DNA of 64,000 nt from a virus (Duplodnaviria; Caudoviricetes). The position numbers were made by a program, and so were the translations under genes. The notes under the pieces are model-generated. The model was not told where the DNA came from. It was given only the letters and a program-made list of their open reading frames with translations, and did no database searches. The stretch covers positions 55,956 to 119,955 of the IMG/VR virus record IMGVR_UViG_3300021387_000025; one strand, written 5' to 3'. Positions within the stretch are counted from its first letter, which is position 1, and each line of letters begins with the position of its first letter. Below, piece by piece: positions 16,891-25,228 of the stretch.

Positions 16891-17059
16891 ACCAGGGGCG
16901 CCCGTTCGAACGGGCGTTCGATCCGAAAATCCCAAATACACCCGCCGGGTATTGTGCAATTTGCACAAAAAAGAAATTGAAAGTTTGTGCATTCTGCCTA
17001 TTGCAATCCGGTGCTGATAGTGGTATACTTGACCCATCAAAAGAGAGGAGACCACCACA

Positions 17060-17518
17060 ATGACAAACCCCACCATTTTCGAACACATGATCGACGGATA
17101 CAACACTCACGCGTACACGCACGAGTACATTTTTGGTTTTGAGTACAAGGGCGTTGTCTATATGTCAAAAGCTACAAGCTCGGTTCTGCCCTTTGTCCTT
17201 TGCCTTGACCGCGCAAGCCGTGGCGCTGGATACGCGCTTCGCTTTAAGCCCAACAACGGGCAGAAGCTGGTCCTGATGGCTGGCGCTGAGGTCCTTTGCT
17301 CAAAGGAATATTTCGAATCGCTGGTTCAGTCCTCTATCTACAACGCGGGCGAGATCTTTGAGAAGCTGGTCACTGAAAAGTTCGGACAGACCTGGATCAA
17401 GGACAACGTACCGTTCACCCAGGACGGAGACCTCACGGTTGACGGGATCGCCTACCAGATCAAGTTCAACAAAGCTACCTTCATCAACGAAAAGCAGCTT
17501 GCAAGGCTCGAGGGCTGA
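17060..17518 (+). CDS. Hypothetical protein, PD-(D/E)XK nuclease-like; paralog of 20346-20804
   Basis: GEIFE..DGD..YQIK pattern; own promoter and RBS. Confidence 0.7.
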   Translation: MTNPTIFEHMIDGYNTHAYTHEYIFGFEYKGVVYMSKATSSVLPFVLCLDRASRGAGYALRFKPNNGQKLVLMAGAEVLCSKEYFESLVQSSIYNAGEIFEKLVTEKFGQTWIKDNVPFTQDGDLTVDGIAYQIKFNKATFINEKQLARLEG

Positions 17519-17610
17519 GCCTTGCACCCGCTGCCCGGGCCGATAAAAAAGGCTTGACAAACACAAGCTGGTATGATATAATAAAGCTATAAAGAAAAGG
17601 AGATAAAACA

Positions 17611-17787
17611 ATGAAGTTTTTATTTGTCGGTTATATAGCTCTGATTCTGGTGGTTTTCTTCTTCAGTATTATTCATCAGGATGATGTAAATAAGAATGGA
17701 TCTCGTAAATTCAACTGGCGCTTTGTAATTGTCCTGATTATGTTCATTGTTTCGCCAGTAGTTGCCAAGCTTTGCGGTCTGATGTGA
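17611..17787 (+). CDS. Small membrane protein
   Basis: 58 aa MKFLFVGYIALILVVFFF..., AAGGAG RBS, own promoter. Confidence 0.65.
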   Translation: MKFLFVGYIALILVVFFFSIIHQDDVNKNGSRKFNWRFVIVLIMFIVSPVVAKLCGLM

Positions 17788-17898
17788 TCGCAAAGTTGGC
17801 CGGGCGGCCGCTGCCGGAGAAAAAAAGATTAAAAAGCACTTGACAAACCGGAGAACATCTGTTATAATAGACTTATCAAAAGAGAGGAGAACACAACA

Positions 17899-18063
17899 AT
17901 GACAAAGGAAGAAATGCTTACACTGGTAATTAGAAGATTCGGATTTGAACATCAGTATACAATCGACTTTGCAGAGTCAATCGAATGGTTAGGACTGGAA
18001 GAGTCCAGAACGCTTCTCGAAGCGGTTCTGACACTCCCACTGGAAGAGGACGAAGAGGACTGA
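17899..18063 (+). CDS. Small acidic hypothetical protein
   Basis: 54 aa MTKEEMLTLVIRRFGFEH...; promoter, RBS and terminator present. Confidence 0.7.
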   Translation: MTKEEMLTLVIRRFGFEHQYTIDFAESIEWLGLEESRTLLEAVLTLPLEEDEED

Positions 18064-18241
18064 AGTCCTCTTCTCTTTGGGCGCGGAGTTAGTCATGACT
18101 AACCACTGCCCGGGCGATGGCGGAGTTAGTCATGACTAACTACGCAGAGTCCCGCTGCCGGTATAAAAGATTAAAAAGGGACTTGACAAACGCGCGATAG
18201 TATGATATAATAAGACTATCAAAAGAAAGGAAGAATTAAAG

Positions 18242-18460
18242 ATGTATAATGTAGATCTGGCTATGTGCAATGGTATGGATACAGTTATAACTCATGTAGA
18301 ACATATTCCGTTCTATTCGAGATGGGCGGCGCGCAAATATTCGCGCGAAGTTATCAAATGCATTGATGTCTATCATATAACAATTATGGACATGGAAACT
18401 GGTGAAATCGTTTTGGAATTAAATAATGACGGTTCGATTGAATGGGACTCGGAGGGTTAA
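18242..18460 (+). CDS. Hypothetical protein
   Basis: Track ORF with promoter, RBS and terminator. Confidence 0.7.
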   Translation: MYNVDLAMCNGMDTVITHVEHIPFYSRWAARKYSREVIKCIDVYHITIMDMETGEIVLELNNDGSIEWDSEG

Positions 18461-18587
18461 ACCCTCCGATTCTTTGCCCGGGCGTTGAGTTAGTCACGAC
18501 TAATTCAAAACTTTTCCGAAAAAACTATTGACAAAATTCTATTCTTATGTTATACTAAAGTCAGAAAAAGAGAAAGGAATCCGAAAA

Positions 18588-19025
18588 ATGAGAATTTGTT
18601 TTGATATGGATGGAACGATCGCCGATCTTTACGGAGTTGAAGGATGGTTGGAAAATCTCATTGAAGAAAATACAAGGCCTTACGAAGAAGCAAAAGTTTT
18701 ACTAAATATGCAGGCACTTGCAAGAGTTCTGAATAATCTCCAGAAAAAGGGATATGAAATCGGAATTATCTCGTGGCTTTCCAAAAATGGTTCTGAAAAA
18801 TATAACGAAAAAGTAAAACTTGCAAAAATCGAATGGTTGAAAAATCACTTAAAAAGTGTTAGATTCGACTTTCTGGAAATTGTCAAATATGGAACAGATA
18901 AAAATCTGGTTTGTACTGGAAAATCTGATATTTTATTTGATGATGAAATCGGAAACCGTGAAAACTGGAAAGGCATTTCCTATAATGTAGAAAATATCAT
19001 TGAAGTTTTAAGAAGATTGAAATAA
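18588..19025 (+). CDS. HAD-superfamily 5'(3')-nucleotidase-like protein
   Basis: FDMDGTIADL motif I and ILFDDE motif IV; ATG at 18588 after the RBS. Confidence 0.8.
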   Translation: MRICFDMDGTIADLYGVEGWLENLIEENTRPYEEAKVLLNMQALARVLNNLQKKGYEIGIISWLSKNGSEKYNEKVKLAKIEWLKNHLKSVRFDFLEIVKYGTDKNLVCTGKSDILFDDEIGNRENWKGISYNVENIIEVLRRLK

Positions 19026-23003: not shown

Positions 23004-23177
23004 ATGACTCACATCGAATTAGTTGAAAAGATTATTGAAGGTTTTCAGAAGCAATTTAAAGAATATCCAGTAGAAAGTGAAAACGAAGAAACCTTCCGTC
23101 AGGGCATGATTTTTGCTTACAAATACTTAATTGAAGTTTTAAAGAACAATGGATATCCCTATATAGAAGAAGATTAA
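23004..23177 (+). CDS. Small acidic hypothetical protein
   Basis: 57 aa MTHIELVEKII..., promoter and AAGGAG RBS. Confidence 0.6.
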   Translation: MTHIELVEKIIEGFQKQFKEYPVESENEETFRQGMIFAYKYLIEVLKNNGYPYIEED

Positions 23178-23252
23178 AATTTTTCAAAAAGCACTTGACA
23201 AAATAAACTTTATAGTGTATAATAGTCTTATCAAAAGAAAGGAAATATAAAA

Positions 23253-23384
23253 ATGTTTTACTTTTTAATGAGTCTTTTAAGTGAAAATCCCGCGGGTGGT
23301 CCACAGATGTTTGGAGCTTTGTGTGACGGTTTTTATTTTGGAATTTTGCTTTGTCAGATAGTCAAGGCAATTAGAAGGAAATGA
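23253..23384 (+). CDS. Small membrane peptide
   Basis: 43 aa after promoter and RBS; hydrophobic C-terminal half. Confidence 0.55.
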   Translation: MFYFLMSLLSENPAGGPQMFGALCDGFYFGILLCQIVKAIRRK

Positions 23385-23492
23385 GCGAACACTTGTTCGC
23401 TCTTGCCCGGGCCGCCAATTTTTGAAAAAGTTCTTGACAAAATAAAAAAAGTATGCTATAATGAATCTATCAAAAGAAAGGAAATAATAAAA

Positions 23493-23690
23493 ATGGCAAC
23501 ATTAAGTTTGAAAACTGCTATGAACATGATGGATATTGTTAGTTATACTCTTTGCCGCACTGTTTGTCAGGATGAGACTTTTAAGACTATGTCTCATGAA
23601 GAATTGACCGAATACATAACTAACACTACAGAAGAAATTTTCGTTGCTTTTTGTGATGAAGTAGGAATTGATGAAATAACAGAATGGTGA
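23493..23690 (+). CDS. Hypothetical protein
   Basis: ATG at 23493 after RBS (MATLSLKT...). Confidence 0.65.
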   Translation: MATLSLKTAMNMMDIVSYTLCRTVCQDETFKTMSHEELTEYITNTTEEIFVAFCDEVGIDEITEW

Positions 23691-24069
23691 TCCCTTCTTT
23701 CGTGCCCGGGCGCGGTTAGCATAGACTAACTTGAAAATTTTTTAAAAAGTGCTTGACATTTTCGGGTGTTTGTGATATACTATATATTGTCAAGGGGAGA
23801 TAGAAAGCCACGGCAGACAGCGGTACCGCAAGGTATAAAAACAGTAAGAAAATTTTCAAAAACCCCTTGACAAACTCCACAAAATGTGGTATAATAAAGG
23901 TACAAAATCAAGAGGGCGTGAGAAAATGGAAGCGCTTAAAAAAATAAAAAAAAGTTGAAAAACCTCTTGACAAACTCAAAAAAATGTGCTATAATAAACA
24001 CATAAGAAATGGAGATGAACTCCAAAAAAACTTGAGGGTCGCAACCTAATAGCGAGAAAGAGGTCTGAT

Positions 24070-24450
24070 ATGACGAATCGTGAATTTCTGAACACCATTA
24101 TCAATGCAAACATCTCTGATGAGATCACCGCGCAGGCACAGGACATGCTTGCAAAGCTGGACGCTCGCAACGCAAAGCGCGCCAGCACTCCGTCAAAGAC
24201 GGCTGTAGCGAATGAGCCGATCAAGGCAAAGATCCTTGAGCTTCTCGGCAACGCGACTGAACTGATGACTGCTCCGCAGGTCGGTGAGGCAGTCGGCGTC
24301 AGCACTCAGAAGGCTTCCGCACTTCTCCGCCAGATGGTAGAGGTCGGCACTCTTACCTCGGAAGAGGTCAAGATTCCGAAGAAGGGCAAGATGAAGGGTT
24401 ACACCCTCGCAGAGGGCGCGCAGTATCTCGATAACGAGATCGCGCAGTAA
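24070..24450 (+). CDS. Winged-HTH DNA-binding protein (paralog family of three)
   Basis: TAPQVGEAVGVSTQKASALLRQMV helix-turn-helix; paralogs at 25229 and 28611. Confidence 0.75.
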   Translation: MTNREFLNTIINANISDEITAQAQDMLAKLDARNAKRASTPSKTAVANEPIKAKILELLGNATELMTAPQVGEAVGVSTQKASALLRQMVEVGTLTSEEVKIPKKGKMKGYTLAEGAQYLDNEIAQ

Positions 24451-24619
24451 CCCATAGTTAAAACCACAAGGGAGAGAGAAATCTCTCCCATTTTTTCGGT
24501 TTCGAGTTAGTCACGACTAACCGTGCCCGGGCCGCCATCCCGAAATTTTTTAAAAAGTAGTTGACAAATTAAAAATTTTATGATATAATAAATCTATCAA
24601 AAGAAAGGAAGTACCCAAA

Positions 24620-24937
24620 ATGAGAAATTTTGATTGGTTTGATGAACTTTATTGTGTTGTTAAAGAAGATGGAACTTTCGCAGGCGTTCCTTGTCAGTCG
24701 ATTGAAGAAGCAATTGAACTTGCCGCGCAACATGATGGAAGTAAAATCTTTGATATGAGACTTGATAATGAATCCCTTTGGGAATATAATGATTATGATC
24801 CATATGAAAATATTCGATCTTGGGAAAGAAAATGCGAACAAGATATTGAATACATGATGCGGGAAAACGAGGATTATAATTGTGATGATGATACGGGTTA
24901 TGATCCTTATATGGGTTGTTATACCGATGAGTGTTAA
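24620..24937 (+). CDS. Acidic hypothetical protein
   Basis: Track ORF, promoter and RBS; C-terminal GYDPYMGCYTDEC. Confidence 0.7.
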   Translation: MRNFDWFDELYCVVKEDGTFAGVPCQSIEEAIELAAQHDGSKIFDMRLDNESLWEYNDYDPYENIRSWERKCEQDIEYMMRENEDYNCDDDTGYDPYMGCYTDEC

Positions 24938-25228
24938 CCATCGGTTTGCCCGGGCGCGAACACATGTTCGGTAAAAACTTTTTGAAAAAAGTACTTGACT
25001 TTTCGGCGAAAGTATGGTATTATATATATTGTCAAGGGGAGAGATAAGCGAGTGAGCGCTCCTCGGTTCAAAAGTCCTGCCGAGTGGCAGATAACAAGTA
25101 GATGAAAAAATCTTGAGAAACCCCTTGACAAACTTCAAAAAGTATGCTATAATAAGCATGTAAAACAAAAGGAGATGAACTCCAAAACTTAAGGGTCGCC
25201 ACCATACAGCGAGAAAGGATTTTATACC

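What the first reader, a model, noticed from the sequence alone, without database searches (positions are those of the whole stretch)
16907..24970. Firmicute LexA (Cheo) boxes occupy the same slot at other junctions
Seen: CGAACGGGCGTTCG (16907), CGAACACACGTACG (19064), CGAACAGAAGTTCG (20836), CGAACACTTGTTCG (23386) and CGAACACATGTTCG (24957). The last four flank a GCCCGGGC at junctions lacking the GTTAG palindrome. Known: the Bacillus/Clostridium LexA consensus is CGAACRNRYGTTYC/G. Inference: the junction has an interchangeable host-operator slot. Cassettes may be wired to different host signals (SOS versus another regulon), or the array may recruit or titrate host repressors on entering DNA.
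Basis: partly seen in the sequence, partly recalled or inferred. Interest (0 to 1): 0.8.

Follow-up and report, generated by a model that had tools for sequence, protein, structure and literature searches.

The report
Host LexA-type sites at phage junctions
A large uncultured phage carries a few near-textbook binding sites for the bacterial DNA-damage repressor LexA in the joints between its early genes; related phages carry many more, beside sites for the redox repressor Rex, so these phages probably dock host regulators on their own DNA, though no binding has been tested.

Summary
All five sequences are at the stated coordinates. The four perfect CGAAC-N4-GTTCG boxes are the only ones in the 120-kb phage genome (0.02 expected in the window). 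All lie in or at the edge of an 11-kb array of about 30 early mini-cassettes.

Three boxes (19064, 20836, 24957) fill the slot just 3' of the GCCCGGGC octamer, 23-24 bp before the -35, where other junctions hold a GTTAG palindrome. Box 23386 lies 5' of the octamer. Box 16907 is probably a by-product of a GC hairpin, and 19064 has a core mismatch.

About 30 related, apparently rumen or gut, phage contigs share this architecture and carry up to 14 boxes each. Their dominant form is CGAACATATGTTCG, the published Firmicute LexA consensus. The arms change about ten times more slowly than the flanks. Consensus Rex operators sit on the other side of the octamer. The phages encode no LexA or Rex.

Only 1 of 161 boxes in relatives overlaps a core promoter, so this is not classical operator control. 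My reading is host-LexA docking sites in a plug-in junction slot, acting as a barrier after terminators or as a repressor sink. This scan had already noted LexA/Rex junction arrays on other phage genomes.

The parts
17000..28200 (+). Early-gene cassette array that holds the boxes: 29 consensus promoters (TTGACA-17-TGnTATAAT), 19 GCCCGGGC octamers, terminator hairpins and small ORFs or ncRNAs.
24957..24970 (.). LexA-type box CGAACACATGTTCG, the best candidate: perfect arms, RNRY spacer, one difference from CGAACATATGTTCG. It lies 1 nt 3' of octamer 24948-24955 and 24 bp before the -35 at 24995 (centre about -66).
20836..20849 (.). LexA-type box CGAACAGAAGTTCG: perfect arms, spacer differs at two positions. 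It lies 4 nt 3' of octamer 20824-20831, 12 nt after the terminator T-run and 23 bp before the -35 at 20873.
23386..23399 (.). LexA-type box CGAACACTTGTTCG in the 5' slot, which is the usual LexA slot in relatives. It lies 5 nt before octamer 23405-23412, directly after the stop of ORF 23254-23385, and is the core of hairpin GAGCGAAC-ACTT-GTTCGCTC (23383-23402).
19064..19077 (.). Degenerate box CGAACACACGTACG with a core T-to-A change at position 12. It occupies the same 3' slot (5 nt after octamer 19051-19058, 23 bp before the -35 at 19101). Probably weak or a decayed site.
16907..16920 (.). Perfect-arm box CGAACGGGCGTTCG with a GC spacer, overlapping the 18-bp palindrome at 16899-16916 in the divergent left-boundary region. 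Relatives have a GC hairpin at this place but no LexA box. A doubtful site.
23715..23730 (.). GTTAG palindrome GTTAGCATAGACTAAC in the same slot of a paralogous ncRNA-cassette junction. It stands for the 11 GTTAG-type palindromes in the array.
27482..27496 (.). ATAAG-N5-CTTAT palindrome in the same slot of a fourth paralogous junction. It is the abundant junction palindrome (8 copies) of relative L076.
20873..20901 (+). Consensus promoter downstream of box 20836. It drives an ORF-less unit that starts GTCAGGAGGAGAG.
24995..25023 (+). Promoter (TTGACT-17-TATTAT, with TG) downstream of box 24957. It drives an ORF-less unit that starts GTCAAGGGGAGAG.

Best explanation
The CGAAC-N4-GTTCG elements are real LexA-type operator sequences that belong to the modular joint between early-gene cassettes in this phage family. 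The joint runs: terminator, palindrome slot, GCCCGGGC, palindrome slot, A/T-rich tract, consensus promoter.

The binder is most likely the host's own LexA, which is present from the first minute of infection. The phage encodes no LexA. In rumen-type relatives the second slot holds consensus operators of another host repressor, Rex. In this phage only three or four boxes are credible (24957, 20836, 23386, perhaps 19064), and most slots hold a GTTAG palindrome of unknown binder.

The boxes lie outside the core promoters, so they do not work as classical occluding operators. Assuming LexA binds, my odds are:
- about 40%: a protein barrier 9-13 bp behind the terminator that stalls read-through RNA polymerase and insulates the next promoter, relieved when LexA is cleaved during SOS;
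- about 25%: a multi-copy sink that titrates LexA as the phage replicates;
- about 25%: mild SOS-dependent tuning of the downstream promoter through its upstream A/T tract;
- about 10%: something else.

Shown: sequence, enrichment, slot geometry, family-wide conservation, selection on the arms in relatives, and absence of a phage LexA or Rex. Inferred: the identity of the binder, the Firmicute host and the mechanism. The confidence given is for the core claim (host-LexA docking sites in a junction slot, not promoter operators), not for any one downstream mechanism.
For: Enrichment:
- 4 perfect boxes against 0.02 expected, and they are the only ones in the 120-kb genome.
- In four complete relatives, 31 of 32 perfect boxes lie inside the array.

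Motif in about 30 related contigs:
- 140 distinct perfect boxes in 311 kb (0.12 expected) and 85 with one mismatch (4.3 expected).
- The mismatches sit at outer positions 1, 2, 13 and 14, while the core is nearly invariant.
- The spacer, which was not used for selection, is A/T/A/Y: R at position 6 in 99%, Y at position 9 in 97%. This reproduces CGAACRNRYGTTYC and CGAACATATGTTCG (PMC2248561, PMC8270828).

Selection:
- The elements are bimodal, present or absent.
- In 46 orthologous junction pairs the arms show 1.3% substitutions, against 10.9% in the spacer and 11-13% in the flanks.

Second host consensus in the same joints of relatives:
- 43 perfect TTGTTAA-N4-TTAACAA and 27 perfect TTGTGAA-N4-TTCACAA, against 0.04 and 0.01 expected (PMC9600882).

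No phage-encoded binder found:
- No S24 peptidase, no LexA_DNA_bind hit above the cut-off and no Rex N-domain in five complete genomes.

Slot and geometry:
- Four paralogous junctions show the slot is interchangeable.
- The box starts 10-13 nt after the terminator T-run as the modal position in relatives, and 9-12 nt after it at 20836 and 24957.

Host type:
- Promoters with extended -10 elements and strong Shine-Dalgarno sites fit a Firmicute-type host.
Against: - No binding data exist and the host is unknown. MAG bins that hold related contigs carry conflicting taxa.
- In this phage the boxes are few and their spacers depart from the consensus (AGAA, ACTT). One has a core mismatch and one overlaps a GC hairpin.
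- The closest relatives by protein identity (L005, L006) have no boxes at all.
- Many lineages of the wider family use other palindromes, such as TAGACGA-N3-TCGTCTA and TAACCTA-N3-TAGGTTA, 8-16 copies per fetched array. I could not assign these to any host regulator, and they look like private operator sets. A phage-encoded binder for every class, including this one, therefore cannot be excluded.
- A position at -66 or further upstream is not a known mode of LexA action.
- Box 23386 could be just a terminator-like hairpin.
Confidence: 0.55

Rival explanations
1. A phage-encoded dimeric DNA-binding protein, not host LexA, binds the boxes. Each lineage would have its own operator and regulator pair, for example for early shut-off, and the likeness to the LexA consensus would be convergence or mimicry.
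For: - Junction palindromes are lineage-specific and diverse, 8-16 copies per fetched array, and often sit at a fixed 8-13 nt before the -35.
- The arrays always encode winged-helix paralogs (24070, 25229, 28611 minus strand).
- An 84-aa winged-helix core gene exists at G000:C1:24338-24592.
- GIL01 gp6 shows that phages can carry truncated LexA homologues (PMC6182141).
Against: - The putative recognition helix of the array winged-helix family (STQKASALLRQ) is the same in lineages with different palindromes, and the family is present in 33 loci without boxes.
- The 84-aa protein is a generic MarR-like fold and is 86% identical in G005, which has no boxes.
- No LexA, S24 or Rex domains are found in five genomes.
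- Two independent palindromes in relatives match two different host consensus sequences, down to spacer preferences and tolerated positions.
Confidence: 0.2
2. The boxes act without any protein partner. They would be hairpins (terminators or processing sites), or simply conserved homology that mediates cassette shuffling, like the stem-loops of PeSL cassettes.
For: - Box 23386 is the stem of an 8-bp hairpin directly after a stop codon.
- The array has paralogous cassettes, and relatives share shuffled cassettes.
- PeSL is a precedent (PMC2839356).
Against: - Separate terminators with T-runs precede the boxes at 20836 and 24957 and in most relatives.
- Folding is no better than shuffled sequence for 4 of 5 sites.
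- The arms are invariant rather than covarying, while the spacer and flanks drift. A hairpin would tolerate compensatory changes, and plain homology would not preserve exactly the LexA-critical positions.
Confidence: 0.1
3. Classical SOS wiring. LexA bound at the box would directly repress the downstream cassette promoter, so the units at 19101, 20873, 23434 and 24995 would be damage-inducible.
For: - The boxes lie at a constant 23-24 bp before the -35 in three junctions, next to an A/T-rich UP-like tract that LexA could partly cover.
- Temperate phages such as GIL01 and SPbeta use LexA boxes for control (PMC4551915, PMC8270828).
Against: - The box centres lie near -66, outside the -35/-10/+1 region.
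- Only 1 of 161 perfect boxes in relatives overlaps a core promoter.
- The distance to the -35 varies from 40 to 100 bp in relatives, whereas the distance to the terminator and the octamer is fixed.
Confidence: 0.15
4. Chance occurrence of a short palindrome in AT-rich intergenic DNA.
For: Box 16907 can be explained largely by the overlapping 18-bp GC palindrome. The hits at 17080 and 47984 look like chance.
Against: - 4 perfect boxes against 0.02 expected, all in 8 kb.
- The same element recurs 140 times in relatives.
Confidence: 0.02

Closest known systems
Host Spo0A boxes on the virulent Bacillus phages phi29 and Nf (PMC2731898)
   Same: An apparently virulent phage carries consensus binding sites for a host global regulator that it does not encode, placed in its early region. 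The phage can thereby read the host's physiological state.
   Different: The phi29 0A boxes overlap early promoters and origins and repress them, which has been shown by experiment. Here the regulator is LexA (plus Rex in relatives). The sites are repeated at cassette junctions outside the core promoters, and nothing has been tested.
LexA boxes of temperate phages: GIL01 (LexA with gp7, and the gp6 LexA homologue; PMC4551915, PMC6182141) and SPbeta SOS boxes (PMC8270828)
   Same: The same Firmicute SOS-box consensus sits on phage DNA, and host LexA is used by a phage.
   Different: Those boxes lie within or next to promoters of a few genes and control the lysogeny-lysis switch. Here no integrase or resolvase and no LexA homologue were detected. 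The boxes sit between a terminator and the next promoter of an early array, and related phages carry up to 14 in the array stretch fetched.
PeSL (promoter-early stem-loop) mobile regulatory cassettes of T4-type phages (PMC2839356)
   Same: Arrays of small, mostly ORFan early genes, each framed by a strong sigma-70-type promoter and a stem-loop terminator. The repeated joints favour modular shuffling.
   Different: PeSLs are not reported to contain operator-like palindromes or a GC octamer. Here the joint carries slots for dimer-binding palindromes, two classes of which match host repressor operators.

Membership tests
Firmicute LexA (Cheo/SOS) box | CGAAC-N4-GTTCG with an intact GAAC/GTTC core | tested here: met
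   Met for 16907, 20836, 23386 and 24957. Not met for 19064, which has GTACG. Consensus taken from PMC2248561 and PMC8270828.
Firmicute LexA (Cheo/SOS) box | Spacer RNRY, AT-rich, optimum ATAT | tested here: inconclusive
   In the window, ACAT (24957), GGGC (16907) and ACAC (19064) fit RNRY, while AGAA (20836) and ACTT (23386) do not. In relatives position 6 is R in 99%, position 8 is R in 86%, position 9 is Y in 97%, and ATAT or ATAC make up 80 of 140.
Firmicute LexA (Cheo/SOS) box | The operator overlaps or abuts the core promoter of the regulated gene | tested here: not met
   The box ends 23-34 bp before the -35, with centres near -66. Only 1 of 161 boxes in relatives overlaps the -35 to +8 region.
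Firmicute LexA (Cheo/SOS) box | Bound by LexA, with the target derepressed on SOS induction | not testable with these tools
   Needs EMSA, ChIP and reporters.
Firmicute LexA (Cheo/SOS) box | The host has a LexA of this specificity | tested here: inconclusive
   The host is unknown. Sigma-A-type promoters with extended -10 elements and strong Shine-Dalgarno sites argue for a Firmicute-type host. Clostridial-type Rex boxes in relatives agree. MAG bin labels conflict.
Host-regulator boxes on a virulent phage (phi29 Spo0A type) | Consensus sites of a host regulator that the phage does not encode | tested here: met
Host-regulator boxes on a virulent phage (phi29 Spo0A type) | The sites repress early promoters or origins by overlapping them | tested here: not met
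   In relatives, tandem boxes do abut an AGCTGC-repeat region at the array end, whose role is unknown.
PeSL-like regulatory cassette array | Repeated strong early promoter plus stem-loop terminator framing small ORFs | tested here: met
   29 consensus promoters and 35 terminator-like sites against 11.5 expected.
PeSL-like regulatory cassette array | Recombination between joints shuffles cassettes | tested here: inconclusive
   Paralogous cassettes occur within the array and cassette content differs among relatives. No recombination junctions or mini-circles were examined.
GIL01-type LexA-controlled switch | Phage LexA partner or homologue (gp7, gp6), with boxes inside promoters | tested here: not met
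   No significant LexA_DNA_bind or S24 hit. The 84-aa winged-helix protein is generic MarR-like. A gp7 homologue was not searched for.

The most novel reading that the evidence does not exclude
The inter-cassette joints of this phage family are a plug-in platform for operators of host global repressors (LexA, Rex, perhaps others). These operators would act not as promoter switches but as DNA-only devices. They would either borrow resident host repressors as roadblock insulators between tandem strong promoters from the first minute of infection, or act as a replicating decoy array that soaks up LexA and Rex and so derepresses the host SOS and redox regulons without any phage protein.
Probability: 0.25. 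Interest if true: 0.85.

Novelty: new variant of a known kind. Interest (0 to 1): 0.6.

Why it matters
Phages are known to exploit host regulators at a few promoters, for example Spo0A on phi29 and LexA on GIL01. Here operator sequences of host repressors recur as standard, swappable parts of the joints between early genes, outside the promoters, across a whole family of large gut and rumen phages.

If host LexA and Rex do bind, this would be either a new way to insulate tandem transcription units with borrowed proteins, or a protein-free way to reprogram host regulons by titration. It would also give a sequence-based clue to the host and to what physiological signals (DNA damage, NADH/NAD+) these uncultured phages read.

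For this particular phage the LexA sites are a minor variant. Its main junction palindrome, the GTTAG type, still lacks a known binder.

Tried and rejected
- DNA search against cultured phages: no match.
- Array winged-helix paralogs as the box binder: rejected. Their putative recognition helix does not covary with the palindrome class, and the family is present in box-less lineages.
- Phage-encoded LexA, S24 or Rex: none found.
- The weak LexA_DNA_bind-like 84-aa ORF (G000:C1:24338-24592): a generic MarR-like winged helix, conserved at 86% identity in a relative without boxes.
- Host assignment from MAG bins that hold related contigs: the labels conflict (Clostridium, Acutalibacteraceae, Muribaculaceae, Prevotellaceae, Treponema, Gastranaerophilales), most likely from mis-binning.
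- RNA hairpin reading: only 23386 folds better than shuffled sequence (z = -2.2); the others do not.
- My first conservation test was circular, because both partners were chosen for perfect arms. I replaced it with a test in which the subject sequence is unconstrained.
- CodY-box scan of the window: only weak enrichment in A/T tracts, nothing at the junction slots.
- Literature searches for LexA decoys or SOS boxes in lytic phage early regions found no description of such arrays.

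
Full report
**Context**

The window is the second half (bases 55956-119955) of a 119,955-bp IMG/VR virus record with terminal repeats.
- It has 29 tRNA genes, including a CTA-anticodon suppressor, and a ROOL RNA.
- Many genes stay open only if TAG is read as sense.
- No integrase or resolvase was detected in it or in four complete relatives, so it looks virulent.

Between about 17.0 and 28.2 kb on the + strand lies an array of roughly 30 mini-cassettes.
- There are 29 near-perfect TTGACA-17-TGnTATAAT promoters, each followed by a strong ribosome-binding site and a small ORF or an ORF-less unit.
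- There are 35 terminator-like hairpins, against 11.5 expected.
- There are 19 copies of GCCCGGGC, against 0.2 expected.

**The observation**

- Perfect CGAAC-N4-GTTCG occurs four times in the window, against 0.02 expected, and no shuffle reached four.
- These four are the only perfect boxes in the whole genome.
- Box 19064 has a mismatch at core position 12.
- The one-mismatch hits at 17080 (inside ORF 17060-17518) and 47984 look like chance.

Slot geometry:
- Boxes 19064, 20836 and 24957 lie 1-5 nt 3' of an octamer and end 23-24 bp before the next -35 hexamer. This puts their centres near -66.
- Three GTTAG palindromes (18489, 22470, 23715) have the same geometry.
- Box 23386 lies 5 nt 5' of its octamer, directly after a stop codon, and is the stem of an 8-bp hairpin.
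- Box 16907 is not at a junction. It overlaps the 18-bp palindrome at 16899-16916 in the divergent region left of the array.
- Across relatives this left-boundary region keeps tandem repeats, a CCAGG motif and a GC hairpin, but no LexA box. I regard 16907 as doubtful.

Four paralogous junctions in front of ORF-less GTCARGRGGAGA units align column by column. The palindrome between the octamer and the A/T tract differs: a LexA-type box twice, a GTTAG palindrome once, and ATAAG-N5-CTTAT once. This is direct evidence for an interchangeable slot.

**Relatives**

A scan of viral contigs for the octamer followed within 8 nt by a perfect box gave 46 loci.
- About 14 are high-GC chance hits.
- About 32 are low-GC (0.32-0.42) contigs with the same one-way promoter array and octamers.

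Box counts in relatives:
- The relatives hold up to 14 perfect boxes per 11 kb.
- In four complete genomes of 135-181 kb, 31 of 32 perfect boxes lie within the 7-11-kb array.
- Across 311 kb there are 140 distinct perfect boxes (0.12 expected) and 85 with one arm mismatch (4.3 expected).

Motif detail in relatives:
- Mismatches fall at outer positions 1, 2, 13 and 14, and the core is almost invariant.
- The spacer, which played no part in selecting the sites, is A (84%), T (74%), A (76%) and T/C (97% pyrimidine).
- The dominant forms are CGAACATATGTTCG and CGAACATACGTTCG.
- This reproduces the published Firmicute LexA consensus: CGAACRNRYGTTYC with footprint TACGAACATATGTTCGTA (PMC2248561), and CGAACATATGTTCG (PMC8270828, Table 1, after Au et al. 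2005).

Presence and selection:
- Presence is bimodal. Of 183 octamers, 86 have a box with 0-1 mismatches within 45 nt upstream, and 87 show only background similarity.
- In 46 orthologous junction pairs where the partner sequence was unconstrained, the arms show 1.3% substitutions. The spacer shows 10.9% and the flanks 11-13%.
- This is a footprint of sequence-specific selection, not of hairpin maintenance.

**A second host consensus**

De novo palindrome counting showed that the box-rich relatives also carry many GTTAA-N4-TTAAC elements.
- In full these read TTGTTAA-N4-TTAACAA, the Rex operator typical of Clostridiaceae (PMC9600882).
- TTGTGAA-N4-TTCACAA, the general Gram-positive Rex operator (papers listed), is also present.
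- The 1.05 Mb of fetched family loci hold 43 and 27 perfect copies, against 0.04 and 0.01 expected.
- Where a perfect octamer lies close by, most copies start 1-7 nt 3' of it; those with a promoter within range most often end 30-36 nt before the -35.

The standard joint in these relatives is therefore: terminator, LexA box, GCCCGGGC, Rex box, A/T tract, promoter.
- Two unrelated palindromes each match the optimum operator of a different host global repressor. That is hard to put down to coincidence.
- No LexA DNA-binding domain above the cut-off, no S24 peptidase and no Rex N-domain is encoded by five complete genomes.
- In this window the only perfect Rex-type box (19957-19974) lies inside an ORF.

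**Rival binders**

Array winged-helix family (24070, 25229 and 28611 on the minus strand):
- This paralog family is the most widespread array gene.
- Its putative recognition helix is the same in lineages with different palindromes.
- It occurs in 33 loci without any box.

The 84-aa winged-helix gene outside the window (G000:C1:24338-24592):
- It has only sub-threshold LexA-domain similarity.
- It folds as a generic MarR-like domain.
- It is 86% identical in a relative that has no boxes.

A caveat remains. The wider family is diverse.
- Many human-gut-type members have no octamer and no LexA box.
- They carry 8-16 copies per fetched array of a private palindrome, such as TAGACGA-N3-TCGTCTA, TAGATGT-N3-ACATCTA, TAACCTA-N3-TAGGTTA or GTAGTCTG-N2-CAGACTAC, fixed 8-13 nt before the -35.
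- I could not assign these, or this phage's GTTAG palindrome, to a host regulator.
- A phage-encoded binder for some or all classes therefore stays possible.

**How it may work**

Classical occlusion is unlikely.
- Of 161 perfect boxes in relatives, one overlaps a core promoter on either strand.
- The distance to the -35 ranges from 40 to 100 bp.
- The distance to the octamer (4-5 nt) and to the preceding terminator T-run (mode 10-13 nt) is tight.
- In this window boxes 20836 and 24957 also start 12 and 9 nt after the T-run.

A dimer bound there would meet the front edge of an RNA polymerase whose active site is at the U-tract. This fits a roadblock that reinforces termination and shields the next strong promoter. 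That step is my inference.

The use of host repressors makes sense for early genes, because no phage protein exists at entry. Alternatives are titration of LexA (and Rex) by replicating arrays, or mild tuning through the adjacent A/T tract.

**Comparison with known systems and novelty**

The closest known systems are:
- the Spo0A boxes of phi29 and Nf (PMC2731898);
- the LexA boxes of GIL01 and SPbeta (PMC4551915, PMC6182141, PMC8270828);
- PeSL cassettes (PMC2839356).

None combines repeated host-operator sequences with cassette joints outside promoters. My literature searches found no such description.

Earlier notes of this scan describe LexA/Rex junction arrays on other rumen phage genomes. 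I reached the same reading before that look-up. The notes supplied the phi29 reference, which I then read.

**Verdict**

This phage is a box-poor member of a family in which LexA-type and Rex-type operators are standard junction parts.

Noticed in passing
window 19957-19974: A single perfect clostridial-type Rex operator, TTGTTAAAGATTTAACAA, lies inside ORF 19812-20063 and not at a junction. Its family-wide counterpart is massively enriched at junctions of relatives.
   Followed up: partly
window 24070-24450, 25229-25576, 28611-28976 (minus strand): Three paralogs of a roughly 120-aa protein with a C-terminal winged-helix domain (sub-threshold IclR, MarR and DnaD_N hits). It is the most widespread gene of these arrays, with 1-4 copies per fetched locus. 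The helix STQKASALLRQ is conserved across lineages whatever their junction palindrome.
   Followed up: partly
window 16760-17000; relatives: The left boundary of the array has a layout conserved across the family: a minus-strand promoter, tandem 24-25-nt repeats, CCAGG, a GC hairpin, AAATACACCC and a TGCA-centred palindrome. It is a candidate packaging site or origin.
   Followed up: partly
window 28330-28450; L013 10900-11000, L039 7730-7830, L012 9740-9850: AGCTGC (GGAGCTGC) iteron-like repeats lie at the right end of the array and are conserved in relatives. There they are preceded by two to four tandem LexA-type boxes and a GTTAG-N6-CTAAC palindrome. This may be an origin.
   Followed up: partly
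window 20909-20985, 23789-23850, 25030-25105, 27545-27640; relatives: ORF-less units that start GTCARGRGGAGA, under their own TTGACWTTT-type promoters, are conserved in many relatives. The unit at 20909 ends in a tRNA-like T-arm and CCA-like tail.
   Followed up: no
L055, L057, L065, L086, L066, L062: Human-gut-type relatives lack the octamer and LexA boxes. They have 8-16 copies of a private 17-18-bp palindrome (TAGACGA-N3-TCGTCTA, TAACCTA-N3-TAGGTTA, TAGATGT-N3-ACATCTA, GTAGTCTG-N2-CAGACTAC) fixed 8-13 nt upstream of each early -35. The binder is unknown.
   Followed up: partly
window 29720-29785 and 31369-31383: A cluster of overlapping CodY-box-like repeats (GAAAATTTTTC units, 2-3 mismatches to AATTTTCWGAAAATT), plus one site with a single mismatch, lies just outside the array.
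   Followed up: no
G000:C1:24338-24592 (outside the window): An 84-aa stand-alone winged-helix protein sits between a GyrA-like C-terminus and the next gene. It is a core gene of the family (29-86% identity in five relatives) and has a generic MarR-like fold.
   Followed up: yes
window 28221-28249 and 28519-28547 (minus strand): Two perfect consensus promoters point leftwards into the end of the array. They may make antisense or small transcripts across the last junction.
   Followed up: no
whole genome: Many long ORFs are open only if TAG is read as sense, including those directly left of the array (window 9579-16869, minus strand). The array ORFs are open under the standard code. A CTA-anticodon tRNA lies at 63285-63372.
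   Followed up: partly
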